From Centroscyllium fabricii (Eukaryota), in assembly GCA_051313645.2 (NCBI GenBank), contig JBNRSN020000029.1, forward strand, positions 19,840,001 to 19,904,000: a DNA stretch of 64,000 nt. The letters are read 5' to 3'. Shown here piece by piece: positions 3,001 to 54,571 of this stretch. Each line of letters begins with the position of its first letter. Position 1 is the stretch's first letter. The notes under the pieces were generated by a model, which saw only the letters and a list, made by a program, of their open reading frames with translations, was not told the DNA's origin and ran no database searches. A program made the translations under genes and the position numbers.

Positions 3001-6000
3001 TAGTTTGGCCGTGATTTTATCAATTTGTTTTGATGGGTCAGTTTGTGGCTATTGGTCAGTTACTGTTGATGAGCCACATTGGGTTGATTGGTCAGTTTGG
3101 CTTGACTGGTCAATTTGTCGTTATTGGACAGTCTGGGGTTGATGGGTTTGTTTCGCCCAGATTTTATGTATTTGTTTTGATGAGTCAGTTTGGGGTGATT
3201 GGTCAAATATTGTTGACGAGACACTGTGGGGGTGATAGGTCAGTTTGCGTTGAATGGTCAGTTTGTGCTGATTGGCTAGTTTGTGGTTGATTTGTCAGGT
3301 TGGGATTTTTTGTTTATGTGGGGTTGTTTGGTCAGTTTGTGGGTGATTGGACAGTTTGTATTGATTGTGCAAATTTTTTTGATCGGTCAATTTGTTTAGA
3401 TCAATTGCTTTGGGTGTGTTATGTCAGTGTTAGCTGATGGGTCACGTTGACGTGATGGGTCAGTTCGGGATGATCTGTCATTTTGTTTTGATTGGTCAGG
3501 ATTTTGTGGTTAGTCAATTTGAGCTGATTGGTCAATTTGCCTGTGGTGGGTCAGTATGGGGATGATTAGCCAGTTTGCGGTGATTGGTCTGTATGTGTTG
3601 ATGGATCAGTTTGCGGTGATTGGTCAGTTTGGGTGATTGGTCAATTTGGGAGTGATGGGTGAGATTGAGCTGATTAGTCAGTTTGTGTTGATGGGTCAGT
3701 TTTTGTTGATTATGCAGCTTGGGGGTATTGGTCAGTTTGTGCTGATGGGTCAAATTTTGGTGAATAGTCAATTTGTGTTGATTGGTCAGTTTGCCTATGG
3801 TGGATCAGTTTGGGGATGATAGGTCAGTTTGCGTGTAATTGTCAGTTCTTGCTGAACCGTCTGTTCATCTTGATGGGTCTGTTTGGGGTGACTGGTCTAC
3901 TTGTGTTGATGGGTCATGTAACAGTGATTGTTCAGTTGTGGTGATTGGTCAGTTTTCGGGTACTGGATTATTTTTGTGTTGTTGGGCCATTTGGGGCGAG
4001 GTTTCAGGTAGTGGTAATAGGTCAGTTGGGGGCTGATTGGTCAGTTTGGGTTGCTGGGTCAGTTTGGAGTGATTGGTCAGTTTTGCGGAGATTTTTCAGT
4101 TTGCTGGTGATTGATCAGTTTGTGTTGATGGGCCATTTTGTGGTGATTGGCCAGTTTGGGAATTATTGGTCAGTTTGCGGTGATAGTTCATTTTGGGGTG
4201 ATTGTTCAGCTTGGGGTTGATTGGTCAGTTTGTGTTGATGGCTCAGTTTGGGGTGATTGTCAGGTTCGGCGGTGGCTTGTCAGTTTGGGGGAGATTGGAC
4301 AGCTTGAGTTGCTTGGGCAGTTTGGGGTGATTGGCCAGTTTGTGAGTGTTTGGTATGTTTGCGGTAATGGGTAAGTTTGAGATGAAAGGACAGTTTATGC
4401 GTGACTGGCCATTTTGTGTTGATGCGTCAGTGTGTGATATTTGGTCAGTTTGTCGTTGATTTGTTAGATTGGGATATATGTGTCAGTTTGTTCATGATTG
4501 GTCAGTTTGAGTTGATTGCTCAGTAATGGGTGATGGGTTGTTTGGTGTTCATGGGTCAGTTTTGGTTGACTCGTCAGTTTGGGGTTGATGTGTTACTTAT
4601 CAAGTGATTGGTCAGTGTGTGCTGACTGGTCGGTTTGTCTTGATTGGGAATTTTGAGGTGATTAGTCACAGTGGGTTGATGGGTCAGTTTGGACGTGATT
4701 GGTTAATTTCTGTTGATGTGTCAGTGTGGGGTGATTGGCCTGATTGGGCTGATTGGTTAGCTTGGGATTGATTGATCAGTTTGGACTGATTAGTCATTTT
4801 AGGGTGATTGGTCAGTTTGTGTTGATGTTTGTGGGGTTGATAGCTCAGATTTGTTTCAGTGGAAGTTTGGGGTGATGAGGTAATTCTTTGTTGATGTGTT
4901 AGTGTGTGTTGATTGGTTTATTGCTGGTTATGGATCAGATTGTATTGATGTGTCAGTTTGTCTGGGAATTGCCAGTTTGTGTTGATGTGTCAGTTTTCGG
5001 TGACTGGTCAATTGAGGGCGATGTGTCATTTTCTGCGAGATTGGTCAGTTTTAACCATTGGGTCAGTTTGGGGTGATAGTTATGTTTGGAGGTTATTTGT
5101 CATTTTGTCGTGAAAGGGTCAGTTTGAGGTGTTTGGTCCTTTTATGGATGATTGATCAGCTTGTGTTGATGTGTCAGTGGTGGGTCATTGGTCAGTTTGT
5201 GGGTGATTATTCAGTTTGCCGGTGATTGGTCAGTTTAGTAGTGATGGGTCACTTTGAGCATGATCGATCAGTTTGTGTTTATTGGTCAGTTTGGGGGCGA
5301 TGCGTCAGTTTGTGTTTATGGGTCAGTTTTTTTTGATGGGTCATTGTATGGGTGATTGGTCAGCTTTGTTGTAATTGGTGGGTTTTGCGGTTATTGGTCA
5401 GTTTTAAGGTGATTCGTCAGTTTGTCTTGATATGTCAGTTTGGTTGTGATACTTAGTTTTTCTCATGAGTCAGTTTGGTTGTGAGAGGTCAGTTTTTCTT
5501 GAAGGATCAGTTTGGGCTGTTTGGGCAGATTTCGGGCGATTGGTCAGTTTGATATGTTTGTTAATTTTGCTGGATGAGTCAGTTTCTTGGTGATTATTCA
5601 GTTTAATTGTGATTCGTCACTTTGTGTTCATTGGCCAATTTGGCGTAATGGTTAAATTTGGGGTGATGGGTCAGTTTGTGTGTGATTGCTCAGCTTGGGT
5701 GTGATTGGTCAGTTTGGAGTGATTAGTCATTTGTGGCGTGATTGGTCAGTTTGGGATGTTTGGTCAATTGGGGATGATTGTTCAGTTTGTGTTGATGGGT
5801 CAATTTAGCGGTGATTGTTCTGGTTTTGTTGATGGGTCAGCTTGGACTGATGAATCAGATTTTGTTGATGGGCCTGTTTGGGCTAATTTGTCAGTTTGAC
5901 GTGTTTGGTCAGATTGAGATTAATGGCTCAGTTTGGGTTTCATTGGTCAGTTTGGGTTGATTGGCCAGTTTGGAGGTGATGAGACATTTTATTTTGATTG

Positions 6001-9000
6001 ATCAGTTTGGTCGTAATTGGGCATCTTGTGTTGGTGAGTTATTTTTGGGTTGATTGGTCTGTTTGTGTTGATTGTTCAATTTAGGTGTGATGTGTTTGTT
6101 TGCTCTGATTTATCAGTTTATGTTGATATATCATTGTGGGGTTATTGTTTAGTTTGCGTTCACGGGTATGTTTAGGGTGATTTGACATTTTGTGATGATG
6201 GGTGAGATTAGGGGTGATAGGTCAGTTTTTGTTGAAGTATCTGTTTGGGGGTGATTTACCAGTTTTTGTTGATGAATCAGTTCGGTGGGTTTTAGGTCAG
6301 TGTGTGCTGATGTGACAGTTCTGGGTTGTTGGTCAGTTTGGCGGTGATTGGTCAGGTTGGTGATGATTGGACAATTTGTGCTGATGGGTCAGTTTGGAGT
6401 GATTGGCCAGTTTGTAGATGATTGGTTAGTTTGCAGTGATGGGTCATTTTGGCGTGATTCGTCGGACTTGATTTGTAAGTTTGTCTGGAATAGTAAATTC
6501 GTCATGATTGATAAGTTGGGGTGACGGTTTGTTTGGCCATGATTTTAACATTTTGTGTTGATGAGTCAGTTTGGGATGATTGATCAGTTTGTCGGTGATT
6601 GTTCTGTTTGTGGGTGATTGTTCAGTTTGTGTTGAAGTGTATGTTTGGAATTGATTGGCCAGTTGATGTTAATGAATCAGTTTGGACGTTATAGGTCAAT
6701 TTCTGTTGACGGGTCTGTTTGCGGTGTTTGTTCAGTTTGGGGTGTTTGGTCAGTTTGCGGTTAACGGGTTATTTTGTCGTTGTTGTTTCATTAAGGTGCG
6801 AGATGTCTGCTTCTGTTATTGGGTCAGTTTGGGAGCGATTGACGGTTTGTGTTAATGGGTGAGTTTCTGTTGATTGGACAGTTTGGCGGTGATTGGACAG
6901 TTTGTGGTGATGGGTCAAATTTGGGTCATTGGTCGGTTTGGGGCTGATTGGTCAGTTTGTGTTGATGTGACAGTTTGTGTTCATTGTACTGTTTGCGGTT
7001 GATTGGTCAGTTTGAGCTGATGGAACAGCTTGGGATGATTAGTCGGTTTGGTGGTGATTGGTCAGTTTGTTCTGATTAGTCAGTTTATGTTAACGCATCA
7101 TTTCGGGGTTATTGGTCAGTTTCCGTTCATGGGTCAGTTTGAGCTCATTGGTCAGTTTGTGCTGATGGGTGAGTTTAGGCGTGATATGTCGCTTTTGTTG
7201 AAGTGTCACTTTGAGGGTGATTGGCCAGTTTTTGTTGATGAATCTGTTTGTGTTGCGATAAGTCATTTTTTGCTGATGTGACAGTTTGGTGTGGTTGGTC
7301 AGTTTGGCGGTGATTGATAAGTTTGGTGATGATTGGTCAATTTGTGTTGATGGGCCACTTTGGAGTGATTGTCCAGTTTGGAGGTAATTGGACTACTTGT
7401 CTGGAATGGTACATTTTTTGTGATTGTTATGTTTGTTGTGACGGGTTAGTTTGCCAATGATTTTATCATTTTGTGTTGATGAGTTAGTATGGGATGGTTG
7501 ATTATTTTGGCAGTGGTTGTTCTGTTTGGGGATGAATGTTCAGTTTGTGTTGAAGGGTATGTTTCGGAATGATTGGACAATTTATGCTGATTAGACAGTT
7601 TGGGCGTTATTGGTCAGTTTCTCTTGATGGGTCTGTTTGCGGTGTTTGTTCAGTTTGGGGTGTTTTGTTACTTTGCGGGTATGAGTTCTTTTGGGGTTGT
7701 TGGGTCATTTGGGTGCGAGATGTCTGCTTCTGTTAATGGGACAGTTTGGGGGTTTTGTCACTTTGTGTTGATGGGTGATTTTGCGTTGATTGGACAGTTT
7801 GGCAGTGATTGGTCAGTTTGCTGATGATTGGTCAGTTTGCGGTGATGGGTCAAATTCGTGTCATTGGTCGGTTTGTGGGTGATTGGTCGGTTTGCGTTGT
7901 TGCGTCAGTTTGGGTTGATTGTACTATTTGCGGGCGATTGTTCAGTTTGCACTGGTGGGTCAGTTTGGGATGATTAATCGGTTTGGGGTGATTGGTCAGT
8001 TTTTCTTCAATGGTAAATTTGTGTTGATTGGTCAGTTTGGAGTTGACGGGTTATTTTGACCGTGAATTTATCATTTTGTGTTGATGCGTAAGTTTGGCAC
8101 TAATTGTCAGTTTGGCGGTTAATGTTCTCTTTGTTGGTAATTTTTCAGTTTGTGTTGATTGGTTAATATTTGAGATTGGCCAGTTTGGTGGTAATGGGTC
8201 AGTTCGAGCTGATTGGTCTGTTCATCTTGTTGTGGCAGTTTGGGGTGATTGGTCTGTTTGTGTTGATGTGTCAGTCAGTTTGTGGTGATTTCTCAGTTTG
8301 GGTTGATGGGTCCGTTTGCGAGTGATGGATCAGTTTGGGCGTGATTGTTCAGTTTGAGTTGATGATTGGACACTTTGGGGTGATTATTCAGTTGCGGGTG
8401 ATTGGACAGTTTGTTTTCTTGGGTCAGAATTTGGTGATTGGTCAATTCGCGCTGAATGCGCACTTTGCCTGTGGTGGGTTGTGTGGAGATGATGGGTCTG
8501 TTTAAGAGTAATGGGTCCGTTCGAGCCGAATGATCTGTTCATCTTGATGGGTCATTTTGGGGTGATTTTTCTGTTTGTCTTGATGGGTCATTTTGCGGTG
8601 AAAGGTCACTTTGGGGTGTTTGGACCGGTTTTGGAGCGATGGGTCAGTTTGTCGTAATTGATCAATTTCAGCTGATTAGTCAGTTTGGGGTGATGAGTCA
8701 GCTTGCGTTGACGGGCCAGTTTGTGGTGATTATTCAGTTTGGGGTGATTAGTCAGTGTGTGTTGACGGGCCAGTTTGGTGGTGCTTGTTCTGTTTGTCTG
8801 TGATTGGTCAGTTTGTGTTGATGAGTCAGAATGTGGTGATTAGTCAATTTGTGTTAATGAGTCAATTTTAGTTTGTTAGATCAATGTGTCTTGATGTGTC
8901 AATTTGATGTGATGGGTCAGTTTGGGACGATTGGACAGTTTGTCTGTGATTGTTCCGTATGTGCGTGATTGGTCAGTTTGTTTTGATGGGTCAGAATTTC

Positions 9001-9260
9001 GTGACTGGTTCATTTGTGTTGCTGGGTCAATTTGCCTGTTGTGGATCACTTTGTAATGATGGGTCAGTTTGAGGGTTATGGGTCAGTTCGTTCTGATTCT
9101 TCTGTTCATCTTGATGGGACAATTTGGGGTGTTTGATCTGTTTGTATTGATGTGTTAGTTTTCGGTGATTGGTCAGTTTGGGGTGATTTTTATGTTTGAG
9201 TTGATGGGTTAGTTTTCAGTGATTGGTCAGGTTGGGGTGATTGGTCACGTTGTGGGTGTT
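1..9260. repeat. Degenerate GT-rich satellite/minisatellite, ~18-19 bp unit (consensus ~GGTGATTGGTCAGTTTGNN), running off the left edge
   Basis: Hundreds of variants of GATTGGTCAGTTTG / GATGGGTCAGTTTG with strong G/T strand skew. The ORFs here are repeat translations (IGQF / DWSV). Confidence 0.95.
2214..2569 (+). mobile_element. tRNA-derived V-SINE (HE1-like) with CR1-derived 3' tail, inserted in the satellite
   Basis: B-box-like GGTTCAAGTCC, V-domain GGAGTTTGCATGTTCTCCCCGTG...TTTCCTCCCAC, CR1 tail GATCAGCCATGATCTC...GGCCTACTCCTGC, then TCTGTGTT repeats. Confidence 0.9.
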
Positions 9261-16498: not shown

Positions 16499-17403
16499 TC
16501 AATGTTTCATTAACTTAATAATTAGAGTGAAGGGACTTTTAACTGTGTTCATTAACTCCTCTCTGAAGTTAGTCTGAGCCACTGCATAAATAATGGTGTT
16601 GGTGCAGGAACTCAAGCGCTGAAGCAGATACCCTGTTTGTTCCATAATGGTGAAAGGGTCGGTGTAATCTGTCTGCAAAAACTGCGAGTCTGCAATTTGT
16701 ATCCACATGTAAACTATAAAAGTTAACATCCACAAAAGTATAAAATTACCAGATATGGCGAGCAGTAAGATGATCGACTTTCTTCGTTTCCTCACCTCGG
16801 GATCACTGTGATTCTCACCAATGCTGCTTTGCATTCTCCTGCGGATTAGATTTGCTGCTAAAATATATCTGATGGTCAAAGCATTTAGGAGGAAAATCAA
16901 AACAAATGGAGCAAATGGGGTTAAAATGCTGTCTAACCAGAGACAAGCCACCCAGACCGGAGAGGTGTAGAAGCTCGACTGAGCAGTGCAGAACCAGAAG
17001 GTATTGTCAATTACTTCCCGGGGTTCATGCATAAAGAAAATTGGAACATTTTCTACAAAACTCAGTCCACACACTATCATTACAACAGTAGCTGCGGTTC
17101 TTTCGGTACAATATTTAATTCTCAAATTCTGGCAACAAATGGCCACAAAGCGATCAAAGGTGAATGTCACTGTAAACCAGACTGAGCAATCCATGACACA
17201 GTAAATTAGACAGAGATTAATTCTGCAGATGGAGGTATAGTTCAGGAATGAATATGGGAAATAAATATTATTTATCGCATACAGTATCACATCAAATATC
17301 ATGACCAGCAGGTCCGCGATTGCCATGGTAATCAGATAACGAGTGATGCATTTGGAGAGTCCGCACTTTCCACGGGAGAGAATCACAATCGTCAATAGAT
17401 TAG
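16499..17403 (-). CDS. Class A GPCR, GPR139/GPR142-like, coding exon 2 (TM1 end to C-terminus)
   Basis: Open frame with hydrophobic TM segments, TM2 MAIADL, TM3 FDRFVAIC, TM7 SSCTNTIIY. Acceptor ttgtttctctcgcag|CT at 17404/17403 is phase 1 and in frame with exon 1. Confidence 0.93.
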
Positions 17404-18003
17404 CTGCGAGAGAAACAAGTAACCAAAACTTAGTCACTGTAGGGTTAAGAAAGTGATGAGCATCCCGTGGGCAATCACACCGATTTGTCTATTTCTGTTC
17501 CTGTCGCTTAATTGGTTTTCTCTACATCGTGTACACGTGCAAATCCTGGCAACACGATGACAGTATGGTCACACACTATGGAATTTATTCTGGTAATTTG
17601 TTCAATAAAAAATAACCTGATGTGACACGAAGAGATGGTCTCCAGTTTGCTATAGCTTATATGCACTTAGTTGCAAATATCATCATCACATATTCAGAAA
17701 GCACGCACTGGGGGATAATACGGTGATTGTGCGAAGCAGGCGAGAGCGGATATGTCCTCCGCTTTAACTCCACTCCCCCCCCATATTGCATTTCACTGAC
17801 TTCACTGGAATAGAAAATAGGCCAAGCTCTGTTTACATTATGTCAGCATCGTGGTCCAGCTACACAGACCAAATGCCTTTATTATAAATAATCTGATTGA
17901 TAAAGCTCTGCAATTTTAATGACGTGAATATTCACTGTGAAATAATCTGTCTGCTCAAATTAATAAACACATAATCCGTCTGCTCTAATTAATAAACACG
18001 TAT

Positions 18004-18672
18004 GACTCAGAAATACGGGTTGGCGGCTTCCTGCGAGGGCAAGCCTCCAACCGACACTTACGGAGCGCTCCTGCCGTTGTCCTCTTCCGGGACTTGAAAT
18101 CCCGATTCCAGGTACTGCTCCAGGTCCCACGAATGGAGTCAGCGAGGAAGCTCCACGCGGGTACACGTGTTCCGCGGTGAGCCAATCACTGGATAGAAAC
18201 TTCCAGTCATAATTTTGACAGAGATCTGTCAAAAGGTATGAAATGGAAGAGCCCCAAAAACACAGTAAACAGGAAAATATTTTTTTGAAACACCACATTT
18301 TTTAACATTTCTATGTCTAACAAACAATACATATTTTTTAAAAAAATAAACATTTTGAAATAAATATTTTCCATTTTTAACTGGCCTAAAAATATCTACC
18401 TGTCTTTCAAGTAAAAAAAAATCAAAAACCTGTGAACAAATACTTCAGTTCAATAAAATAAAGACTTACCTGCCAAAACGGGGTCATTGCGGCTGATATG
18501 GTATGCAGGCCAATGCGCTTTAGCTCCCGACCACCCTTTGCCTTCTTCGGAATTGCAGGTATCCCACACATGCACCGGAAATGGTGTTTACCTGAAATTC
18601 CAAGGGCTGCGCGCATGAGTATCCGCTCCGTACTCATGCGTTTGGCCCCGGGGCCATCGGGAAATCAGGCCG
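18004..18672 (+). mobile_element. Non-autonomous TIR (MITE-like) element, family A copy 1, in the GPCR intron
   Basis: Colinear with 22846-23596: terminal hairpin ..AAGCCTCCAA, TTTGACAG/CTGTCAAA hairpin, AT-rich centre, TGAGTA..ACTCATGC end hairpin. Confidence 0.7.
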
Positions 18673-19249
18673 AATTAATTTTTACATTGAGCCAACGTGT
18701 GAAATGGATGATGTCAAAATACCTTCCCTTTATAAACCACTTCCATATGTCCATCCATTAGAGTCACGGGAAGGGAAATCCGGCGATCACCTGGTCGTCA
18801 TTTTTTCGCTAATGTCCAAAAGTTGTAATAACCCTAACTGAAATCAGTATCAGGATGCTACCCAATTGCTGCTTTAAGTGGAAACGTGCGTAATAAATAT
18901 GGTCTTGCCGTCGTCACCCACATCCCAACAACAAAGTAAACAGAAGTGTACCTCATGAAATGATGAAAGTGTTCCTGACCAACATTTCTCAACATCCAGC
19001 ATTAAACTGGTCTAGTCTCATGGTTGAATGGTGATGGAGGAGTGAGGGATATGCCAGACCATGAGGTTAGATAATGTGGTGGTAAACAATTTCACTGCTA
19101 ATGTGACTTACAGTGCCTCATGGACACCCAGTGTAGGATTGTTACTGTTATACCGAGACTGTACCATACAGAGATAGGGCCAATGTCCACGATGGTGCAT
19201 CTTCTCATTTTGTAGATTGGACTTTGTGTAAATGTTAACATAATTTGCC

Positions 19250-19750
19250 TAGTGCAAAACTGACCCGAACAGTTTTACACCCCACGCGATTTTACTTCCC
19301 ATAGATTCACTAGAGTTGATTTTTCACTTAGTCCACCGGGCAGAAACCGACTTCTAACGATCAGCCGCCTGTTTTACAGTACCCTGGATTTTCATTTCCA
19401 CTGACTTCAACGTAGCCGAGAGTCGAGCGAGTTGTAACATCGGTGGCCAAATCATTATTGTCTGTGTTCCGTCCGTAACAAAGGACAAAATTCCCCCCAA
19501 TGGAAACTAAAATCAGACCAGGTGTAATCTGAACTTTGAGCAATGATGTAAAATGGGGGAGATCCTCAGCAGCTTCCATTGTACACCTCGTCCGATTCCC
19601 CTTCCTTTGACTTTAATGGAAAGGTTGCTGTAAGTATTGACGGCCACATCATATCGGAACATAAATTGGTATGGGGCAGATTGTGATTTACTGCGATAGT
19701 GTAAAACGGGCGACAGCCAATCGGCAGCCGGATTTTTATCTCTCGATTTT
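19250..19750. mobile_element. Relic MITE-like element, family B (a related relic lies at ~16140-16430)
   Basis: Inverted repeat CCGCCTGTTTTACAGTA (~19366) / TAGTGTAAAACGGGCGA (~19698). The 14-mer AAAACGGGCGACAG is shared by 16148 and 19703. Confidence 0.45.
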
Positions 19751-19876
19751 TAGTTCAATTGAATCGAATTTGAAATAAAAACCAGGAGAGATGTAAAGCA
19801 GACTGCTCATTCACTGCCAGCCGCTTTACACCATCGCACACAATTAAGAGCAGAGAAGGCTGAGGGGGATCTGAAG

Positions 19877-20489
19877 CGGGAGCGGGACCAAGATGGTGGC
19901 GCGTGTACACGCAGTGGCTTTGCGTCTCCCGGGATGATGCTGTCCGCTGGTAGTTCCGGGTTTCTTCGCTCGGCGGGGGCGGCGTGTTGGTGCACTGAGG
20001 CCAGTGCAACGGACTTGTTGGAGCAACGGGATGTCTGCATTGGGGATTCACCGAGGCGTGGTCTCTGAGGAGCGCCAGTGTTTGTGTGGTGTCCGAGGTC
20101 GGAGTGCCGGAGGTCGGCAAATTCGGAGCACCGGGGCCTGCAGAGAGTCGGAGTGCCGGTGCCTGCGTGGATCCCGAGGTGGTCATGGCGTCGGAGGTCA
20201 GCGAGTTCGGAGCGCCGGAGGTCGGCGAGTTCAGAGCACTGGGGCCTGCAGAGTCGGAGTGCCGGTGCCTGCGTGGTCACCGAGGTGGTCGTAGCGTCGG
20301 GGGTCGGCGAGTTCGAAGCGCCAGAGCCTGCGTGGTCGGAGCACCAGGGCCAACTTGGAGTTGAACAGTCTGGGACTTGAAGCTATGGACATTTTAACAT
20401 CTGCATCGTTTTTTGGGTAGTTTGCAAGTATGCATTTCGTTGTATTGTGTTTCACTATGCAATGACAATAAAATTGAATCTGAATCTGA
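19877..20489 (+). mobile_element. Non-autonomous retroposon with LINE-like 5' leader, GC-rich internal tandem repeats and (GAATCT)n tail (Rex1/Babar-like ends)
   Basis: 5' AAGATGGTGGCGCG motif, repeats of TCGGAG(T/C)GCCGG, 3' ATGACAATAAAATTGAATCTGAATCTGAA. Flanking direct repeat ATCTGAAG at 19869-19876 and 20490-20497. Confidence 0.7.
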
Positions 20490-20583
20490 ATCTGAAGATC
20501 TACTCCAATACTGCTTGAAGGCAAGCACAATAATAATGTTAACCATCAGTAAGAGCAAATAACAGCTGGTCACATTCACTTAC

Positions 20584-20653
20584 CAGGAACACCAATCGCT
20601 GCAAGAATCGGGTATAAAATTGCTTCTATATGCACAATGATTGGCCATCCCAT
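20584..20653 (-). CDS. GPCR coding exon 1 (MGWPIIVHIEAILYPILAAIGVP)
   Basis: ATG at 20653 in context gaaaATGG, donor CCTG|gtaagt, phase 1. 70+905=975 nt gives 324 aa plus stop and completes TM1 (YPILAAIGVPANLLTIVIL). Confidence 0.9.
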
Positions 20654-20724
20654 TTTCTAGGAGCGGTGAATTTCCCGGTTAGTCTGAGTGAGAAATAGAT
20701 TACATGGATTATCAACAACGATTG

Positions 20725-20772
20725 TTTTATACTTTCGTGAGAGCCCATGGGGGCCAATCCGGTTACCCAATT
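20725..20772 (-). promoter_or_regulatory. Putative GPCR core promoter (TATA box plus CCAAT boxes)
   Basis: TATAAAA on the minus strand at 20725-20731, ~70 bp upstream of the ATG; GGCCAATC at ~20752-20759 and a second CCAAT at ~20767. Confidence 0.5.
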
Positions 20773-21104
20773 ACTGACATTAGTCACAGTCAGAGAACAA
20801 ACAAGTGAGGCAGCTGCCCTTACTCTAATCACCAAAGCGCAGGGGAGTGTTTCACACTCACATGTTCCAGCAGCATAGCAAGAACATGTATGGCAATCAT
20901 TTCCCATTGAATTATCTAGAAAATAAAGTATTTTAGGGATTGTCATTTTACAGTATTGATGTAGATCCTTGCTGGACAAAACTAACAAGCAAAGCAAGTC
21001 ACACATTTCCACGGTGTATTGAAGAATGTGATGACGCTGGTGTGCCTATTGAAGCTAGATAAGCACTTATTTATTTTATTCTCGTTATTTGTTAGGCAGG
21101 GACT

Positions 21105-23596: not shown

Positions 23597-23994
23597 ATTG
23601 ACATGCTGATCATACTGCTGATTTCGTTGCAATATTTCTGAAATCACACAGGGAACACAACTGCAATATCAGTGTTGTAATCGGGATATTTACACAATTA
23701 CTGTACATGATATATCGTTGCTGTCATTGTGATATTTACTCAGTTACTGTACCTGTGATAACAGTGTTGTATTTGTGTTATTCACTCAGAGAGTGTACCT
23801 CTGATAAAATGTAATTAACTCTCAAATTTATGCACAATCTGTAACGGTGATATCAGTTCTGTAATTCTGACATTTACTCAGTGACTGTGCCAGTGTGAGC
23901 AATACTGCAATTCTGATATTTACACATATACTGTACCTGTGATATCAGAGCAGTAATTTTGATATTTATATGCTGAATGTGCCTGGGATACTGT

Positions 23995-25600
23995 GAGATA
24001 ATTAAAAAAGTAGGACCACGAAGGCAGTAATCTCTAGATTGCTACCAGTGCCACGAGCTTATCAGAGTAGAGGGAGCAGGATAGCTAGATTAAACACGTG
24101 GCTTGAACAGTTGTGCAAGAGGGAGGGATTCAAATTCCTGAGCTATTGGAACCAGTTCTGTGGGAAGTGGGACCTGTAAAAATCGGACGGACTTTACTTG
24201 GGCAGGACTGGAACCGATGTCCTTGGGGTAACATTTGCTAACACAGTTCGGGAGGTTTTAAAATATTATGACAAGTGGATGGGAACCTATGCAGTGAAAC
24301 AGGTGGCAGTAATATGCAGCCTGATCAATGTGGTAGCAGGGTGAGAAGCAATAGGGGAAGCCGAGTAAACAAGGGCAGAAACACAGAGGGCCACACCAAA
24401 ACATACATCTAAAAGGACAACGGTTGTTAAGAAAGCAAGCCTGAAGGCTCTGTATCTTAATGCATGGTGTATCCGTAATAAGGTGGATGAAGTAACTGCG
24501 CAAGTAGATGTTAACAGATATGATGTGATTGGGATTACAGAGACGTCGCTCCAGAATGATCAGGGCTGGGAACTGAACATCAAGGGACATTCCACATTCA
24601 GGAAATATAGAAAAAAGGAAAAGGAGGTTGGGTAGTATTGCTGGTTAAAAAGGAGATTCATGCAATAGCTAGGAAGGACATTTTCTTGGAGGGTGTGGAA
24701 TCCATAGGGTGGAGCTGCAGAAGACCAAAGGACAGAAAACGTTTGTGGGAGTTGTGTACAGACCCCCAAACAGTAGTAGGGAGGTGGGGGAGGTTATCCA
24801 CTTTGGTGGTAAAAATAGTAAGACAGAATATTATCGGAATGGTGACAGATTAGGGAATGGGGAGGTGCAACGAAACCTGGGCATCATGGTACATCAGTCA
24901 CTGAAGGCAGAAATGCGGTTACAGCAGGCAGTTAAGAAAGCAAATGGCATGTCGGCCTTCATAGGGAGGGAATTTGAGTACAGGACTAAGGAGGTGTTTC
25001 TACAGTTGTACAGGGCCTTGGTAAGGCCACACTTGGAGTATTGTGTGCAGTTTTGGTCTCCTAACTTGAGGAAGGACATTCTTGCTATTGATGGAGTGCA
25101 GCAAAGTTTTATTAGATTGATTCCCGGGATGGACGGACTGACATATCAAGAAAGACTGGATCAACTTAACTTGTACGTTCTGGAGTTCAGAAAAATGAGG
25201 GGGATCACATAGAAACCATTTAAATACTGACGGGTTTAGACAGGTTAGATGCGGGCAGAATGTTCCCATTGTTGGGGAAGTCCAGAACCAGAGGGCACAG
25301 ACTAAGGCTAAATGGAAAGCCATTTAGGACCGAGATGAGGATACACTTCTTCACACAGAAAGTGGTGAACCTGTTGAATTCTCTACCACAGAAAGTTGTT
25401 GAGGCCAGTTCGATAAATATATTCCAAAGGGAGTTAGATGCAATATGTACAACTAGGGAGATCAAGAGATATGGCGAAAAACTAGGAATGGGGTACTGAT
25501 GTAGCATGTTCACCCATGAAAGTGTTGAATGGCGGTGCAGTCTCGAAGGGCCGAGTGGTGTACTACTGCACCAGTTTTCTATGTTTCTATGTTTCTATGT
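23995..25600 (+). mobile_element. CR1 LINE with a large internal deletion (ORF1 esterase part, APE start, RT C-terminus, 3' tail)
   Basis: Translation jumps from GVVYRPPNSSREVG (APE) to EVIHFGGKN (after RT) at ~24790; LVRPHLEYCVQFWSP; (TTTCTATG)n tail. Confidence 0.92.
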
Positions 25601-28600
25601 TGTATCAATACTGAAATTCTAATACTTGCACAGTGACTGTACCGGTGATGCCAGTGATGCAAATCTGATATTTACACATTGACTGTAAATGTGACATCAG
25701 AACTGATTTTCTGATATATACACACTAAATGTACCTGTAATATCAGTTCAGTTATTTTAACACTTTCACCCTGACTGTATCTGTGCAATCATTGCTTTGA
25801 GTGGGATATTTAAACAATTACTGTTCCTCTGATATCGCTGCTGTAATTCTGATATTTCCACACTGCCTATAACTGTGATGTCTGTGCTGTCATTCTGATA
25901 ATTACACAAAAGCAGTACCTGTGATAGCATATCTGTAATGCTGATATTTCCACACTGCCTGTACCTGTGATAGAACATCTGTAATGCTGATATTTCCACA
26001 CTGCCTGTACCTGTGATAGAACATCTGTAATGCTGATATTTCCACACTGCCTGTACCTGTGATGTCAGTGCTATAAATCTGAATTTAAATACTGACTGTA
26101 GCTGTGATCTCAATGCTGCAATTCAGATATTCACACACTGACTGTATGTATGGTTTCGGTGCTGCTATTCTAATAATTACACCCTGACTGTGTCTGTGAA
26201 ATCATTGATTTTAATGTGATAATTGCACAGTTACTGCACCTGTGATATCCGTGCTGCAATTATGATGTTTGCACAGTGATTGTACTTGTGAAATCAGCGC
26301 TGAACATCTGTTCTTGAGACACTGAATCTACATTTGATGTCAATGATAATAATCTGATATTCACAGTTATTTTTTGCTGATATATTTGCTGTAATTCTGA
26401 TATGTCCACAATTTCTGTAACTGTGATATCAGTGGTGCAATTCCGATTAATACACAGCGACTTTACCAGTGATATCCGTTCTGTAATTCTGTTAATTACA
26501 GGAAGGCCATACATGGGATATAAATGCTGAAATGCTGGTATTGACAGAATAAATATACCAGTGGTATCACTGCTGCAATTCGGAAATGTACACATTCACA
26601 TTAGCTATGATATCAGTGCTATAATCTGATATCCACACACTGATTATACCTGTGATATCAGAGCTGTAATTGCGAAATTGAAACAGTGACTGTACTGTGA
26701 AAACAGTGCTGTAATTCTGAAATACTCAAACTGTCTGTATCTGTGATATCAGACCTGTACTTTTGATATTCACACACTGACAGTACATGTGATATCAGTG
26801 ATGTAATTTTGATATTTGCAATGGCTCTACCGGAAAAATCAGGACTTTAATTCTGATAGCTATATAGTCATTATAACTATGATATCCGTACTATATGTTT
26901 GGTATTTACACGGAAAATAAAGCTGTGATATCGGTGCTGTAATTCTGCTAATTGCATTGACTGTAACTCAGTGCTTTAATTATGATATTCACATATTGAT
27001 TTTACCTCTCGTATCAGTACTGTAATCCTGATCTACACACATTAGTGCATCTGTAATATCGGTGCTGTAATTCTGATATTGATACACTGAATTTACCTGT
27101 GATATGAGTGCTGAAATTGTGATATTCAAACATTGACTGTTCCTGTGGTATCCTTGCTGTAGCTGTGATATTCTCAGAGTGACGGTAACTGCAATATCTG
27201 TGCAGTAATGTTGGTACTCGTACACTAACTGTACCATTGATATTGTTGATAAAATTATGTTACTCACACGCTCAATGCACCCGCGGTACAATTGCTGCAA
27301 ATCTGATAATCACTATTTCACTGTACATGTGAAGTCAGCTCTGCAATTCTGATATTAAGACGCTGAGGGTATCTGTCACATCAATGCTTTTAATCTGACA
27401 TTTATAAAGTGAATACATCTGATATATCGCTGCTGTAATTCTTATATTTCCATGCTGACTGTAACTATGACAGCCAGATGCTAATTCCGAAATATATACA
27501 CAGAATTTCGCTGTGATATCAGTGCTGTAAATCAGGTAATCACAGTGATGGTCCCTGCGTTATCGCTGCTGTCATTCTGATATCCAAAAATGAATGTATC
27601 TGTGATATCAGAGCTTTAATTAGGATGTCCACACAGTAAATGTATTATTAGTGTTGTAATGCTGATATTAGCACACCAGCGATATCAGTATATTAATTCT
27701 GATATTGACATATTGTCTGTACCTGTGAAGTCAGTGCTTTAATTCTGAAATTTGCATAGTGGTTGTACCCGTGATATCAGTGCTGTAGTTTTGATATTTC
27801 CAAATTGAATCTCACTGTGATATGAGATCTGCAATTCTGATATTTAAACAGCGGCTGTTCCTGTGATGTCTGTGCAGTAATTCTGATATTTAAAAACTGA
27901 CTTTAACTGTGATATCGATGCTGTAATTGAAATAATTACACACTGACTGTGTCGATGAAATAATTGGTTTCAGCGTGATATTTGCATAATTATTGTGCCA
28001 TTGATATCGGTGCTGCAATTCTGATATATACACAGAGATTGTACTTGTGAAATCAGCGCTGTAGATATGATACTCCGACACTGATTGTAACTCTGATATC
28101 AGCGCCGACATCCTGATATTTCCACGGTTATTTACTTCTGATATCCTTGATATAATTCGGATATATCGACACTGATTGGAACTGTGATATCGGTGTTGCA
28201 GTTCTAATATCTGCACAGTGGCTGTACCTGTGATAACTGTGATTTAATTCTGATTCTCACAGAATAAATGTACCTGTGATATCAGAGATGCAATGCTGAT
28301 GTTTACTGCGGTAATGTACCCCTGATATCACTGCTGTAATTCGGAAATTTACAGATTTAGTTTAGCTGTGATATCTGTGGTGTAATTCTGATATTCAGGC
28401 ACTGAGTTTAATGTGATATCAGAGCTGAAATTTCGAAATTAGCAAAGTTCATGTACGTGTAATAGCTATGACGTATTGCTGATATTTACACAACAACTCT
28501 TAATATAATACCAGTATAATAATTCTGATATTCATACGTTGACTGTATCTGTAAAGTCATTGTGCTAATTATAATATACTCACACTGATTTTATCCGGAA

Positions 28601-31600
28601 TATCAGAGATTACATTCTGATAGTCACTCAGAGATTGTACCTCTGATAAAACTTATTTGATTCGGATATATGTACACTGCATATAACGCTGATATCAGTG
28701 ATGTAATACTGATATTAACACACTGCCTAACTGTGATATCGGTGCTGTAATTTTTTAATACACCCTGACTGTGTCTGTGGAATCATTGTTTTAAATATAA
28801 TATTTGCACAGTGACTGCACCCATGTTATAAGTGCTGTAATTCTGATATTTACACACTGACTGTATCTGTGATATTGGTGCAGTAATTATTTTACTAACT
28901 CCCTAATTGTGTCTGTGGAATCAATGCTTTAAATGTGATATTAGCGCAGTGATTGTGCCTGTGCTATCAGGGCTGTAATTTTGATAATTTCACACTGAAT
29001 GTACCTGCGGAATCAGTGCAGCAAGTACGAGATACTCACACTGACTGTATCAGGGATATCCGAGATGTACTTCGGATATTTGTACACTGAATGGACATTT
29101 GATATCATTGATGTAATTCAAATATTTACAATGACGGAAGCGGTGATATCGTTGCTGCAATTCCGTTACTTACATTGGCTTTACCTCAGTGCTATATTTC
29201 TCATAGTCACACAGTGATTTTACCAGTCATTTAAATGCTGTAATGCTGATTTTCGCACATTGTTGCAAGTGCGATATCCGTGCTATAATTCCAATATTAA
29301 GACACATAATTTACCTGTGATATCAGTGCTGTAATGCTGATATTTACACACTCACTGCACCTGTGATATTAGTGCTATAATTCTCATAATCACATACTAA
29401 CTGTGCAAGTGATATAACTGCTGTAATTCTGATATTCACTTATTAACTGTACATGTGAAATCAGCTCTGTTATTCTGACATCGAGACAAAGAGTGAACCT
29501 ATGAAAGCACTGTTGTTAATCTCTTAATACACTTGACATTTCCTGAGATATCGCTGCTGTAAATTTGAAATTTCAACGCAGACTGTAACTGTTATAAACC
29601 TGCTCTAATTCAAAACTTGCACACTGACTGGAGCTGAGATATGAATGGTGTCATTCTGATATTTATATTCTTACTTTACCTTTGATATCGTTGCTTTAAT
29701 CTGATATTTACAGTGACTGTACCTGTGATGTCATGCTGTAATTATGGTATGTATACAGTGAATGTGCTTGTGATATTGATGTTCGCATTCTGATATTTCC
29801 ACATTGAATGCAGCTGTGGTAGTAGTGCTGTAAATCCGATATTCACACGGTTACTATACCTGCGATGTCAGTGCATTGATTCTGATATTTACTCAACGAC
29901 TGGATCTATGATATCGGTGCTGTAATTAAAATACTCACCCGCTGACTTTGCATGTGTTATCATTGCTTCAAATGTTATATCTGCACAGTGTCTTTACCTG
30001 TGATATCGGTAGCTGCAATTCTGATATTTACGCAGTGACTGTACGTGTGCAATCAGCGCTGTAGATCTGATGTTATGAACTGCGTGTACCTGTGATATGA
30101 GTGCTGTAATTCTGAGATAACCACATTGAATATAACTGTGATATCACCGCTGTAATTCTGATAAAGGCAAGTTGACTGTACTAGTGATTTCTGTACATTA
30201 ATTCCGATAATAACAGAATAACTGCACCTGTGACATCAGTGCTGTAAAACTGATATTTACACACTGAGTGTACCTGTGATATCAGAGCTGTAATTACGAA
30301 ATTAACACAGTGACAGTAATTATAAGAGTGCTATAATGCTGATATAGTTACACCAACTATTCCTGTGATTTCATTTGCTTATGTTAGATATACACACGTT
30401 AACTGCACCTGTGAAGTCAGTACTGTAATTCTGAGATACTCATATAGTTAGTATCTGCGATATCAGAGCTGTTATTCTGCTTTCACACACTGGCTCCTCA
30501 TATGATATCAGTGATGTAATTCTGATATTTACAATGACTGTACCGGTGATATCTGTGCAGCTATTCTGATACCTGCACAGTCATTATAACTCTGATATCG
30601 ATGATATATGCCGGATAGTTACACATGAACTGTGCCTGTCATATCTGTGCTGTAATTCTGTTATTTATGTGTCCTGTACTTCAGTGATATTACTCTGATA
30701 TTCACACAGCGAATTTAACTGTGATATCAGTGCTGTAATCCTGATTTTCGCATATCGTTGTATCAGTGATATCGGTGCAGCAATTCCGAAATTCAACACG
30801 GAATATACATTTGATATCAGTGCTGTAATTCTGATATTCAAACATTGCCTGTACATGCGATATCAGTGCCGTAATCATTATACTAACACAGTGACTGTAC
30901 TTGTGATCTCAGTTCTGTAATTCTGATCTTTACAGTGTGACTGTAACCTGTGATATCTGTGCTGTAACACTGACATATCGGCAGTGACTATACCTGTGAT
31001 AACTGTGCAGTAATGCTGGTATTTAGACAATAAGTATACTTGTGATGTCGTATATTTAATTCAGATATTGACACACAGTGACTTCAGCAGTGATGCCTGA
31101 GCCGTAATTCTGATATTCACGTAGCGAATATAAATGTGATAACAGTGCTTTAATTCTGATAAACATAGAGTTGCAGTGCCTCTGAAATCATTGCTTTGTC
31201 TCTGGTATTCACACACTGAACATACCATTGCTATGAGTGCTGTAATTCTTATGTTTGTGCCCTGAACGTACCGCTGATATCGGTGCTGTAATTATGAAAT
31301 AACAAGCGACTCAACAGTGACATCAGTGCTGTTATTCTGATAGTTACAATGACGGTTATAGTGATATGATTGCTGCCATACTGACATTTATAGGACTGTT
31401 AATTTGATATATTTTCTGTGATTCTTATATTTACACATTGACCGTATCTGTGATATTTGTTCCATAATTCTGACATTGACACATCGACTGCACCTGTGAT
31501 TTCAGTGCTTTAATTCTGATCTTTACTCACTGAATGTACCTGTGAAGGCAGTGCTGTAAACTATTATTCACACACTCTCTCTTCCTGTGATATGAGTGCT

Positions 31601-31800
31601 GTAAATCTGATATTTACAAAGTGAACTTGTCTGTGACATCTGTGCTGCAATTCTGATTATAACACATTGACTGTTCCTGTGATATCAGTCTTATAAATCT
31701 GATGTTTATTCAGTGACAGTACCTGTGGTATCAGTGCTGTAATCTGATATTCGCACAATCTCTGAACTTTTGAAATCATTGCTGGATTTCTGATATTTTC

Positions 31801-33385
31801 AAAATAACAACAGAAAACGCTGTAGAATCTCAGCAGGCCAGGCAAGATCGGTGGAGAGAGAAACAGAGTTGACGTTTCAAGTCGATGATCTTTCTTCAGA
31901 ACTGCAGAAGCTAGGACTGGGTAGATTTTAAAGCTTACGGGGACTGGGGAAAGGGGGAGGGATGTTGAAAGAACAAAGGGGAAGTCAGCAACAGGCTAGA
32001 CGGCGGGGAAGGTAAGAGATATTAGGTGAAATTGAAGGAAAACAGAATGGCTCTGAACAGGTGTGAACAGCTGTAGCCGATTAAAGAAAAAAGTAAATAG
32101 AAGAATAAAGCCTAGACGAAAGTGTGGGTTGAAACATGATAGAAAATATATATATGTAAAAAAGTGTGGTAGAGGCCGAGGTTATGATCCAAAATTGTTG
32201 AACTCTATTTTTACTCCAGCGGGCTGTACAGTGCCTAAAAGAAAGACAAGGTGCTGTTCCTCGAGTTTACGCTGGGCTTCCGTGGAACAATGCGAAATGC
32301 CACAGACAGTGAGCTCTGAATGGCAGTGTAGTGGAGAATTAAAGTGACAGGCCACCGGCAGCTCACAGTCCCCATTAAAGACTGAGCAGAGGTGGTCCGA
32401 AAAGCCGACACCAAATCTGAGTTTGGTCTCTCCAATATTGAGGAGACCACATCATGAGCAGCGAATAGAGTATAATAATTTGGAGGAAGTACAAGTAAAT
32501 CGCTGTTTCGCCTGGAAGGTGTATTTGGGGCCCTGGACTGTGGGAACCGGGGAAGTAAATGCGCATGTGCTACATTTCCTGCGCTTGCATGGGAAGGTGC
32601 CGGGAAAGTGAAAGCGCTGCTCGAGGTGGTAGAGGAGTAGACCATGGTTTTGCGGAGGGTGCAGTCCCTATGGAATGCAGAAAGGGAAGGTGATGGGAAG
32701 ATGCATTTGGTGGTGGGATCACACTGGAGGTGGCGTAAATAGCGGAGCATGATCCATTAAATGTGGAGGCTGGTGCGGTGATAGGTGAGGACAAGGGGAA
32801 CTCTCGCGTGGTTCCGGGAGGGAGGGGCAAACGTGAGGGCTGAAGGGCACGATACAGAACTACATGGTCGAAGGTTGTGTCTGCCACAGTGGAGGGGAAT
32901 CTTCAGTTGAGGATAAAGGAAGACAAGTCGGAAGCACTTGTATGGAATGTGGCATCGTCAGTGCAGGTCTGGCGTAGATGGAGAATCTTGTATAATGGAA
33001 TAGACTCATTACAGGAGGCGGAGTATAAGGATGTGTATTCAAGGTACCTTTAGGGGTGAGTGGGCTTGAAGGGAATGTTGGTCAATAACCTATCCCCAGA
33101 GATGGAGGCGGAGGAGTCGAGGAAGGGAAGGGAATAATCGCAGATGGACCATGTGAAGGTGAGGGAAGGATGGAAGTTGGAAGCAAAGTGAATTAAATCT
33201 TCTAGTACAGGGCGAAAGCAGGAAGCGGAACCGATACAGTAATCAATGTACCGGGAAAAGAGCTGAGGGAATGGACCCGAGTAGAACCGGAGCAAAATCT
33301 GTGCCACATATCACATGAAAACGCAGGAATAGCTAGGAACTATACGGGTACCCATAACAACACCTTTGTTTTGGAGAAAATGCAG
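31801..33385 (-). mobile_element. Penelope-like element, truncated and frameshifted (RT C-terminal part plus GIY-YIG endonuclease)
   Basis: GVVMGTRI.P and FSRYIDYCIG RT motifs; FTCTSSKLLYSIRCS..GLLNIGETK GIY-YIG-like motif; terminal region with a hammerhead core. Confidence 0.88.
31867..31903 (-). ncRNA. Minimal type I hammerhead ribozyme motif in the Penelope-like terminal repeat
   Basis: Minus strand reads AGTT-CTGAAGA-AAG atcatcga CTT-GAAA-CG-TC-AACT: intact CUGANGA and GAAA cores, stem I AGTT/AACT, stem II AAG/CTT, palindromic ACGT stem III, GUC cleavage site. Confidence 0.75.
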
Positions 33386-36300: not shown

Positions 36301-37609
36301 GTAATTGTGATATTTGCACAGTGACAGGATCTGCGATATTGAAAAATTCACGGTACCTGTGATCTCAGTGCCTGTGATATCATTGCTGTAATATGATATT
36401 CACATACTTTCGGTACCTGTGATATTAGTGCAGTAATTCTGAAATTGATGCACTGAGCATACCTGTGATATCGGTTCTGTATTTATGATATGTACAGTGA
36501 CGTATATGTCATATCAGTGCTGCAACTCGTATACTTACATAGTGACTGTACCTCTGATATCATTGTTGGATTTATGATATATATCCGTCATTTTACCTGT
36601 GATATCAGGGCTATGATTCTGATATTGACACACTGACGTTACCGGAAATGCCAATGCTGTAATTCTGATGTTCCAATCCTGACTGTACCTTTGATAGTGT
36701 GGCTGTAATTAAGATATGTGCAGTAACGATTCTGAGACAGCGGTGCTGATATTATGTTATTTACACATACTGTTACTTTAATATCGTTGCTGTATACTGA
36801 TATTCACACACTGATTTTCGTGTGATATCAGTGATGTAATTTTGATATTTACGCACCGACTGCAGCTTTCATATCGATGCTGTAATTCAGATAAATTTCA
36901 GTGACCGTACTTTGTGATATCAGTGCTCGAATTCTGATATCCACACAGAGACGGTATCTTAGATATCTGTGCTATAATACTGATATTGCGACATTGGCTC
37001 TACCAGTGATATCGAAGCTTTAATGTTTTTTTTTGCAGAGTACCTCTCATATTCACGCATGGAATATAACAATGATTTCAGCTATTTATTTCTGATATTC
37101 ATACAGTGCCTGTGATAGCTTTGATTCAATTATGATGTTCAAAAACTGATTGTACCTGTCATATCTGTCCTTTAATTCTTTAATGAATGCACTGAGCGAC
37201 CGTTCGATATCAGTGCTGTATTTCTGATATTTACTCAGTATCTGTAGCTGTGATATCCATGCTGTAATGTTGGTACTTGACAATGATTGTACCTGTGATA
37301 TCGGAGCTTATTCTGAAATTGTCACAGAGTGACTTTAGCAGTCTATTCAGTGCGTTAATTTTGATATTCAAGCAGCGAATATTCCTGTGATATCAGGGCT
37401 TTAATTCGGATAATCAGACAGTTACTCTGCCTGTGAAATCATTTCTTTGTTTCTGATATTCACACACTGACTGTCCCATTTATATGAGTGCTGCAATTCT
37501 GATATTTATTCCCTGACTGTACCTCTGATATCGATGCTTTAATTTTGATATTTCTGTGACATTAGTGCTGCACTGTTATTTATACGGAATGTTACTTATA
37601 TATCGATTA

Positions 37610-54136: not shown

Positions 54137-54154
54137 TCCTGCCCGACAAAGCCA
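54137..54154 (-). promoter_or_regulatory. ERV primer-binding site, tRNA-Ser-like
   Basis: TGGCTTTGTCGGGCAGGA lies 3 nt after the LTR end and resembles the complement of the tRNA-Ser 3' end (TGGCGTAGTCGGCAGGA), with mismatches. Confidence 0.65.
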
Positions 54155-54571
54155 AATTGTTACAGTTTTAATCGGAGCCTGGAAGGACCAAGCGTGAAGC
54201 AAGTTCGACGTATACCCGACTTAATTCATATAGTATAATAACTTCCACTCAGACACCGGATAGCAGAGAAGAACTGTTGTTTATTAATTAACAGAGCGCT
54301 GCGAGAAGAGGCTGAACACCTTACAGATGCTTTCACCAGGATTCTCAAAAACAGTTGCTGCAACCAGTTATTTTATACACAAATTATCCAATTACATTGT
54401 TACTATTAGTCACATGGCAATTAAGGAATATTACATAATTATCTATAACTTCCCACAATTAAGTCGATTAGTTCTGTCTTGCAAACATAGTTAAATCACA
54501 GGCTGTCAATTAGCTGGCCTTTGTACCAGTCTTGGATTTCCCCAACATGTCTGTCTAACGGTGGTGGCTTA

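What the first reader, a model, noticed from the sequence alone, without database searches (positions are those of the whole stretch)
16499..20772. Intact two-exon orphan GPR139/142-like receptor isolated between two satellites, with a hidden first exon
Seen: a 70-bp exon at 20584-20653 splices in phase to 16499-17403, giving a clean 324-aa 7TM protein with a very short N-terminus and TM7 NTIIY in place of NPxxY; TATA and CCAAT motifs lie upstream. It is the only undamaged ORF in 64 kb of decayed repeats. Established: mammalian GPR139/GPR142 are class A receptors activated by aromatic amino acids, and cartilaginous fishes have very few OR-type odorant receptors. Inference: this is a diverged paralog from a lineage-expanded, uncharacterised family, not the GPR139 ortholog, and is a candidate amino-acid or other chemosensory/immune receptor repertoire kept in satellite-rich chromatin.
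Basis: partly seen in the sequence, partly recalled or inferred. Interest (0 to 1): 0.7.

Follow-up and report, generated by a model that had tools for sequence, protein, structure and literature searches.

The report
Member of giant shark receptor family
This intact two-exon receptor gene is one of at least about 600 related gene copies in this shark-type genome; it is a distant cousin of GPR139, not GPR139 itself, and the family's variable predicted binding pockets and shared upstream motif suggest a likely overlooked set of chemical sensors, although its tissue and ligands are untested.

Summary
The gene is real: a 70-bp exon splices GT-AG to a 905-bp exon, giving a 324-aa class A GPCR. It is not isolated: 29 family genes lie within 4.4 Mb, median gap 91 kb, and one TM3 pattern finds 597 loci genome-wide against 0 controls. 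It is not GPR139: that gene is elsewhere, grouping with it is rejected (AU p=3.5e-5), and 3 of 5 Trp/Phe-site residues change class. The family is sister to a conserved amphibian/sturgeon gene. dN/dS is 0.16-0.38. Predicted pocket positions are hypervariable among shark paralogs (entropy 2.0 vs 0.92 for other TM sites) but nearly invariant among 18 amphibian orthologs (0.08 vs 0.51). Paralogs share a promoter-like module: forkhead-like core, TATA, and in about a quarter a homeodomain+O/E-like pair. Best reading: a birth-and-death chemosensory repertoire (about 0.5). No RNA data were available. Ten literature searches found no description of the family. This scan has already found the family and its promoter on other DNA.

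The parts
20584..20653 (-). Coding exon 1 (ATG, very short N-terminus, first half of TM1); phase-1 donor
   Evidence: matches N-termini of shark RefSeq/UniRef models; same exon found in 47 of 61 own-genome loci
17404..20583 (-). Intron, 3180 bp, GT-AG, holding high-copy repeats; same position just before N1.50 in all family loci, in two single-copy relatives and in the GPR139 ortholog
16499..17403 (-). Coding exon 2 (rest of TM1 to helix 8 and stop): D2.50, C3.25-ECL2 Cys pair, DRF, P5.50, W6.48 without P6.50, NTIIY
20726..20731 (-). TATA box, 78 nt before the ATG
   Evidence: 37 of 46 family promoters vs 7% background; position
20744..20759 (-). Homeodomain-like half (degenerate here) + 2 nt + O/E(EBF)-like palindrome at a fixed distance from TATA
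   Evidence: spacing equals that of the Sfaktiria composite probe; binding untested
20768..20773 (-). Second homeodomain-like site (TAATTG)
   Evidence: TAATTR in 25 of 46 promoters vs 17% background and 27% in shuffles
20779..20803 (-). Family promoter core: forkhead-like TGTTTGTT element (2 mismatches to the 11-nt family core here) followed by a second conserved element, about 72 nt before TATA
   Evidence: the forkhead label is recalled, not tested
2..9257 (.). 18-bp satellite downstream of the gene (context only; not a shared feature of paralog flanks)
23666..58099 (.). 46-bp satellite blocks interrupted by retroelement pieces, upstream of the gene (context only)

Best explanation
This is an intact, purifying-selected member of a shark-and-ray class A GPCR family with at least about 600 loci in this genome, which likely works as a chemosensory repertoire in which each copy would detect different water-borne or luminal chemicals with its own predicted pocket. 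Shown: gene structure, family size, tandem clusters with broken copies, descent from a lineage separate from GPR139 whose bony-vertebrate sister is a conserved gene, a conserved intracellular face with a diversified predicted pocket, and a conserved upstream module. Inferred: that the module is a promoter driving all members in one cell type; that this cell is a chemosensory cell, most likely an olfactory microvillous neuron given the homeodomain+O/E-like pair; and that ligands are cationic (amines or basic peptides), since acidic residues are common at 2.57, 3.37, 5.42 and 7.35 while the basic 6.51 residue of GPR139 and its single-copy relatives is lost.
For: Size: 597 and 445 exact matches to two TM3 patterns, controls 0; 131 of 131 scored candidates matched, out of 1,579 first-look candidates. 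By pattern sensitivity on 61 known loci my estimate is about 630-910 loci. The catshark has 65 known chemosensory genes (PMC6368271, passages). Birth and death: 14 of 20 loci picked across contigs have an intact exon 2, 6 of 20 are broken. Selection: dN/dS 0.16-0.38 against 59 paralogs. Pocket: 33 generic class A pocket positions have entropy 2.0 vs 0.92 and pN/pS 0.67 vs 0.33 against other TM sites; 0 of 10,000 random TM sets reached this. The same positions are nearly invariant in 18 amphibian orthologs (0.08 vs 0.51), which validates them as a ligand-constrained set. Promoter: among 18 divergent paralogs only the -200..-90 segment stays alignable (64% of pairs vs 2-12% for four flanking segments); the core is within 1 mismatch in 35 of 46 vs 1% background; all 11 of 11 exact genome-wide copies of a 25-mer lie upstream of family genes on the same strand (one search compared). 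The two single-copy relatives lack the core within 420 nt of their donor. TAATTR + 2 nt + O/E-like occurs in 10 of 46 promoters (0-3 at other spacings, 0.2% in shuffles), the spacing of one mouse Lhx2/Ebf composite probe (PMC5608512 supplement 7).
Against: No expression data of any kind for this genome. The composite is present in only about a quarter of promoters, a strict EBF site in 1 of 46; the motif was partly defined after seeing my alignment, the promoters share ancestry, and the spacing comparison rests on one probe. In mouse the composite marks enhancers rather than OR promoters (PMC5608512, passages). Shark olfactory neurons are reported to be microvillous, Go/TRPC2-positive and mainly V2R-using, without the ciliated neurons that express ORs (PMC10116579 passages; PMC11979771 section 23). 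The most conserved element is the forkhead-like core, which is not an OR-promoter hallmark in the passages I read. Pocket statistics use non-independent pairs (181) and no formal site model was run. Near-identical copies on small contigs could inflate the count if they are haplotigs.
Confidence: 0.5

Rival explanations
1. An immune or barrier-sensing repertoire, like formyl-peptide or Mas-related receptors: members would be expressed in lymphocytes, granulocytes or epithelial sentinel cells and detect microbial or parasite peptides.
For: Pocket diversity and turnover fit this equally. A forkhead-like core plus an EBF-like site, with an overlapping E-box in 11 of 42 promoters, is also the E2A/FOXO1/EBF1 grammar of B cells (recalled, not checked in a paper). 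Most catshark OR genes are reported as most highly expressed outside the nose, including spleen (PMC11979771).
Against: Overall dN/dS is about 0.3 with no region clearly above 1 (ECL3 0.94). The homeodomain half with fixed 2-nt spacing points to the neuronal Lhx2/Ebf pair in 10 of 46 promoters. The E-box is absent in 31 of 42.
Confidence: 0.25
2. GPR139-like sensors of endogenous aromatic amino acids or neuropeptides, multiplied for dosage or fine tuning.
For: The family profile's best solved-structure match is GPR139 (69.8 vs 50.2 bits for the next). The intron position is shared. 3.33 stays aromatic and W6.48 is kept. The ancestral bilaterian receptor of this group is proposed to bind peptides with aromatic C-termini (PMC8557429, passages).
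Against: H187, R244 and N271 of the GPR139 site (PMC5430874, passages) read D, T and Y here, and 6.51 takes at least six residues among 60 paralogs. Identity to this genome's GPR139 is 22%. Hundreds of different pockets are not expected for one endogenous ligand.
Confidence: 0.12
3. Passive amplification: a few functional genes are copied by segmental duplication in a large, repeat-rich genome, and most copies are redundant or drifting.
For: The genome is 7.2 Gb. Very recent pairs (dS below 0.15, 23 pairs) have pooled dN/dS 0.65-0.74. Broken 5' fragments recur on several contigs.
Against: dN/dS is 0.25-0.38 even against the four closest paralogs. Subfamilies are shared between sharks and rays. 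2,406 clusters at 90% identity were found; the 117 named ones among the 120 listed are all sharks and rays. The promoter module is conserved where synonymous sites are saturated.
Confidence: 0.13

Closest known systems
GPR139 (human PDB 7VUG/9M42; this genome's ortholog G000:C446, L124) and GPR142
   Same: Best solved-structure match of the family profile; same phase-1 intron before N1.50; no proline at 7.50; aromatic 3.33 and W6.48.
   Different: 22% identity; a joint clade is rejected (p-AU 3.5e-5); the family keeps the C3.25-ECL2 cysteine pair that GPR139 lacks, mostly loses P6.50, and replaces H187, R244 and N271; at least 597 loci versus one. No GPR142 sequence was available for the tree.
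Conserved 'probable GPR139' gene of amphibians and sturgeon (e.g. XP_069092602.1 Pleurodeles; Xenopus tropicalis P0300; Acipenser P0316)
   Same: Sister group of the shark family with 100/99 support.
   Different: One 90% cluster per listed species, pocket nearly invariant with K6.51, N7.39 and P6.50 kept; 28% identity to the window protein.
Fish/coelacanth GPR139-like subtypes named GPR210A/B (PMC6504862, passages)
   Same: L091 and L092 of this genome group with coelacanth/teleost and bichir/anchovy genes next to the family and share the exon layout.
   Different: Single loci without the promoter core near exon 1. That paper has no mention of sharks; equating L091/L092 with GPR210A/B is my inference, not matched by accession.
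Vertebrate chemoreceptor repertoires (OR, TAAR, V1R/ORA, V2R, T2R)
   Same: Tandem clusters, birth and death, short N-terminus, conserved intracellular half with variable pocket, shared TATA promoter with homeodomain/O/E-like sites in part of the family.
   Different: Only Pfam 7tm_1 hits, no chemoreceptor family; descends from the GPR139/neuropeptide-receptor group; keeps a coding intron; expression unproven.
Elasmobranch RefSeq/UniRef models auto-named 'probable G-protein coupled receptor 139', 'sex peptide receptor-like', 'FMRFamide receptor-like'
   Same: The same family: 81% to a Heptranchias model, 50-66% to models from many sharks and rays.
   Different: These are automatic names; I found no paper treating them as a family.

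Membership tests
Class A (rhodopsin-like) GPCR | Seven-helix bundle with N1.50, D2.50, DRx, P5.50, NxxxY and a Pfam 7tm_1 hit above cut-off | tested here: met
   74.1 bits vs cut-off 30.5; model and Foldseek TM-scores about 0.7 to peptide GPCRs; motifs
GPR139 ortholog | Groups with GPR139 in a tree | tested here: not met
   Careful tree; AU test p=3.5e-5; a separate GPR139 locus exists on C446
GPR139 ortholog | Trp/Phe site F109, H187, W241, R244, N271 | tested here: not met
   Y, D, W, T, Y here
GPR139 ortholog | No C3.25-ECL2 disulfide | tested here: not met
   Both cysteines in 59 of 60 paralogs; absent in GPR139
GPR142 ortholog | Groups with GPR142 | not tested
   No GPR142 sequence was retrieved; a copy number of at least 597 and a sister gene annotated in amphibians argue against it indirectly
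GPR139/142-related group (broad) | Nearest characterised relative is GPR139, with shared intron position | tested here: met
Canonical vertebrate chemoreceptor families (OR, TAAR, V1R, V2R, T2R) | Sequence membership (family HMM) | tested here: not met
   Only PF00001 hits; ESM Atlas neighbours are GPR139-like and FMRFamide-receptor-like clusters
Chemoreceptor repertoire (functional kind) | Large clustered family with pseudogenes | tested here: met
Chemoreceptor repertoire (functional kind) | Hypervariable pocket on a conserved scaffold | tested here: met
Chemoreceptor repertoire (functional kind) | OR-type homeodomain + O/E promoter grammar | tested here: inconclusive
   10 of 46 with fixed spacing, strict EBF site in 1 of 46; 13 vs 2 control genome-wide
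Chemoreceptor repertoire (functional kind) | Sparse expression in sensory cells | not testable with these tools
   No RNA holder listed
Chemoreceptor repertoire (functional kind) | Activation by environmental ligands | not testable with these tools
   Needs heterologous assays

The most novel reading that the evidence does not exclude
Sharks and rays have a fifth, unrecognised olfactory receptor family, about ten times larger than their whole known chemoreceptor set. It arose by expansion of a GPR139-related gene that stays conserved in amphibians and sturgeon, after it gained a compact promoter with an Lhx2/Ebf-type composite, and it is expressed sparsely in olfactory neurons.
Probability: 0.35. 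Interest if true: 0.9.

Novelty: new variant of a known kind. Interest (0 to 1): 0.66.

Why it matters
Sharks are described as having only about 65 chemosensory receptor genes and a nose run almost wholly on V2Rs (PMC6368271, PMC10116579, PMC11979771), which sits oddly with their large olfactory organs. A family of 600 or more pocket-diversified GPCRs hidden under the automatic label 'probable GPR139' would change that count tenfold if it is sensory, or reveal a large innate sensing system if it is immune. The question is directly testable in existing catshark and skate tissue RNA-seq. The conserved Xenopus ortholog offers a tractable route to the ancestral ligand and cell type. This particular gene is an ordinary intact member; the interest lies in the family.

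Tried and rejected
Expression: no RNA holder listed for exon 2. The three coded runs laid are contigs of unrecorded type that behave like genomic DNA; no joint across the intron was among those shown (14 joints were not shown). This is no evidence either way. The three Logan-only homologues begin with what look like unspliced intron read-throughs, so they do not show transcripts. The catshark atlas supplement could not be read; it may hold tissue expression for these genes. That paper's top-50 brain/olfactory list has no GPCR at all, V2Rs included, so it is uninformative. My first idea of a family-wide strict O/E site failed: 1 of 46 strict, 6 of 46 for the bare core, mostly this gene's own subclade. 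CCAAT box rejected as not clearly enriched. Satellite association rejected (3 of 60 flanks). A single-sequence PDB search and Foldseek ranked V2R, galanin, opioid and neurotensin receptors above GPR139; only the family profile resolved GPR139. An amphioxus query failed to find the GPR139 locus (stricter first look); a short motif did. The 72-row careful tree did not finish and only the quick tree was read; a 28-row careful tree replaced it. For 14 of 61 loci, and for most of the 20 spread-out loci, exon 1 was not found within 9 kb, so the promoter counts use 46 loci weighted to this gene's cluster; two distant loci with exon 1 (L104, L116) lack the core. The 'second element' count printed used a wider region than its label says and is not used. 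PMC3247239 was not read. No formal positive-selection model, synteny test or complex prediction was run.
Full report
Observation. The minus strand carries a 70-bp exon (20584-20653) with a GTAAGT donor and a 905-bp exon (16499-17403) with an AG acceptor. Joined, they give 324 aa with no internal stop. Exon 2 hits Pfam 7tm_1 only (74 bits) and folds as a class A bundle (pLDDT 76; TM-scores about 0.7 to peptide receptors). Exon 1 is not a guess: 324-aa gene models of Heptranchias, Heterodontus and Pristiophorus start with the homologous N-terminus. In 61 own-genome loci the acceptor sits at the same position in 61, and a matching exon 1 lies within 9 kb in 47. The two satellites are real, and no other receptor piece is in the window or within 10 kb of it.

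It is not isolated. A protein search of the own genome had 1,579 first-look candidates; all 131 that were scored are near full-length paralogs at 52-87% identity apart from the gene itself, and 5 of the 131 have a stop. Thirty-six lie on this contig between 17.3 and 28.2 Mb; the 29 within 17.3-21.8 Mb have a median gap of 91 kb, so one gene per 64-kb window is the normal density. Two independent TM3 patterns match 445 and 597 places with 0 control matches. They catch 43 and 40 of my 61 loci (15 and 24 of the 28 outside this cluster), which gives a rough 630-910 loci; haplotigs could inflate this and divergent subfamilies deflate it. Of 20 loci picked by hand across contigs from the first 100 listed, 14 have an intact exon 2 and 6 are broken. 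The satellites appear in only 3 of 60 paralog flanks. The public collection holds 2,406 clusters at E<=1e-10; of the 120 listed, 117 are named shark and ray models, mostly auto-named 'probable GPR139', and 3 are unnamed Logan proteins.

Ancestry. A profile of 25 members has GPR139 as its best solved-structure match (69.8 vs 50.2 bits), although the single sequence ranks GPR139 56th of the 60 rows shown. The GPR139 ortholog is a separate single match on contig C446, 22% identical. In a 28-row careful tree the shark family (97/97) is sister (100/99) to a gene of salamander, frog, caecilian and sturgeon. Two further single genes of this genome (L091, L092) group with coelacanth/teleost and bichir/anchovy genes, and amphioxus sequences come next (midpoint root). 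Forcing the family together with GPR139 is rejected (p-AU 3.5e-5). The amphibian gene appears as one cluster per listed species. All of these share the phase-1 intron before N1.50. PMC6504862 (passages) names fish and coelacanth GPR139-like subtypes GPR210A/B but does not mention sharks. GPR142 was not in my tree.

Selection and pocket. dN/dS of this gene against 59 paralogs is 0.16-0.38, and 0.25-0.38 against the four closest; the 23 most recent pairs in the set give 0.65-0.74. Thirty-three generic pocket positions have mean entropy 2.0 against 0.92 for other TM positions and pN/pS 0.67 against 0.33; the intracellular TM half is the most conserved (0.26) and ECL3 the least (0.94). The pairs are not independent and this is not a formal test of positive selection. 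The control is informative: in 18 amphibian orthologs the same positions are nearly invariant (0.08 vs 0.51). So a lineage with one conserved pocket in bony vertebrates has hundreds of different pockets in sharks. The GPR139 Trp/Phe site (F109, H187, W241, R244, N271; PMC5430874 passages) reads Y, D, W, T, Y here. The basic residue at 6.51, kept in every single-copy relative checked, is lost across the family, while acidic residues are common at 2.57, 3.37, 5.42 and 7.35. Amino-acid sensing by homology is therefore not supported; cationic ligands are an inference.

Upstream module. In 46 loci with exon 1 and an ATG, TATAAA is present in 37 (7% background). An 11-nt core containing TGTTTGTT is within one mismatch in 35 (1% background; this gene has two mismatches), mostly 72-73 nt before TATA. 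Among 18 divergent paralogs only the -200..-90 segment stays alignable (64% of pairs vs 2-12% for flanking segments), although synonymous divergence between clusters exceeds 1. All 11 exact copies of a 25-mer in 7.2 Gb lie upstream of family genes (one search compared), so it is not a dispersed repeat; core plus TATA gives 63 matches vs 4 controls. The single-copy relatives lack the core near exon 1, as do two distant family loci. Just before TATA sits an O/E-like palindrome, preceded in 10 of 46 by TAATTR at exactly 2 nt (0-3 at other spacings). This is the spacing in the Sfaktiria Lhx2/Ebf composite probe (PMC5608512 supplement 7; passages; PMC7804114 passages). A strict EBF site occurs in only 1 of 46. 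Calling the core 'forkhead-like' is recalled knowledge.

Mechanism and rivals. The best fit is a chemosensory repertoire co-regulated in one cell type, each member tuned to different ligands (0.5). An immune or barrier-sensing repertoire (0.25) fits the protein data equally, and the forkhead/EBF/E-box grammar is also that of B cells (recalled). GPR139-like endogenous sensing (0.12) and passive amplification (0.13) fit worse. Nothing here shows expression: no RNA run was listed. Published shark olfactory work finds microvillous, V2R-dominated neurons and examined only the known families (PMC6368271 passages; PMC10116579 passages; PMC11979771 passages and section 23).

Novelty. Ten full-text searches, mostly seen as listings, found no paper describing this shark family. 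The library lacks most subscription papers, and the catshark atlas supplement could not be read. PMC10620051 (passages) has no GPCR mention; PMC8557429 (passages) places GPR139/142 as sister to protostome MIP/FMRFamide receptors; PMC11589774 (three passages) reports a parallel expansion of FMRFamide-like receptors in a snail. The gene models themselves are public under automatic names. This scan has found the family in at least 16 genomes and the promoter module several times; those notes are unchecked and not counted as support. Verdict: a real, ordinary member of a large and apparently undescribed receptor repertoire; new variant of a known kind; interest 0.66.

Noticed in passing
L091 (G000:C712:37816637-37817614) and L092 (G000:C1:325147826-325148689): Two single-locus GPR139-related genes of the same broader group, intact and with the same exon layout; L091 is 62% identical to a coelacanth protein. 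Probably the shark counterparts of the fish subtypes called GPR210A/B.
   Followed up: partly
L124 (G000:C446, near 54.727 Mb): The true GPR139 ortholog (exon 2), with F3.33, H5.42, W6.48, R6.51 and N7.39 kept.
   Followed up: partly
L109, L110, L117, L120 (contigs C335, C689, C734): Broken 5' fragments of exon 2 (about 60-95 codons) recur on several large contigs, suggesting a dead copy spread by segmental duplication; they inflate pattern counts.
   Followed up: no
L065, L067, L071, L072 upstream regions: The promoter core is itself tandemly repeated in one subfamily on C800/C922.
   Followed up: no
window 37720-41131 (-), 48999-51240 (+): LINE-like retroelement remnants with endonuclease and reverse-transcriptase-like frames interrupted by stops or frameshifts (Pfam Exo_endo_phos, and a GDSL/OSK-like first frame).
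   Followed up: no
window 44100-46308 and 61468-63143: Two LTR-retrotransposon-like remnants (gag-, protease- and RT-like pieces by eye; weak DUF4939 hit), interrupted.
   Followed up: no
window 20094-20326 (intron): A 106-bp two-copy tandem inside a very high-copy interspersed repeat.
   Followed up: no
G000:C989 and C1222 vs C811: Near-identical family copies on small contigs and on C811; possible haplotigs or very recent duplications.
   Followed up: no
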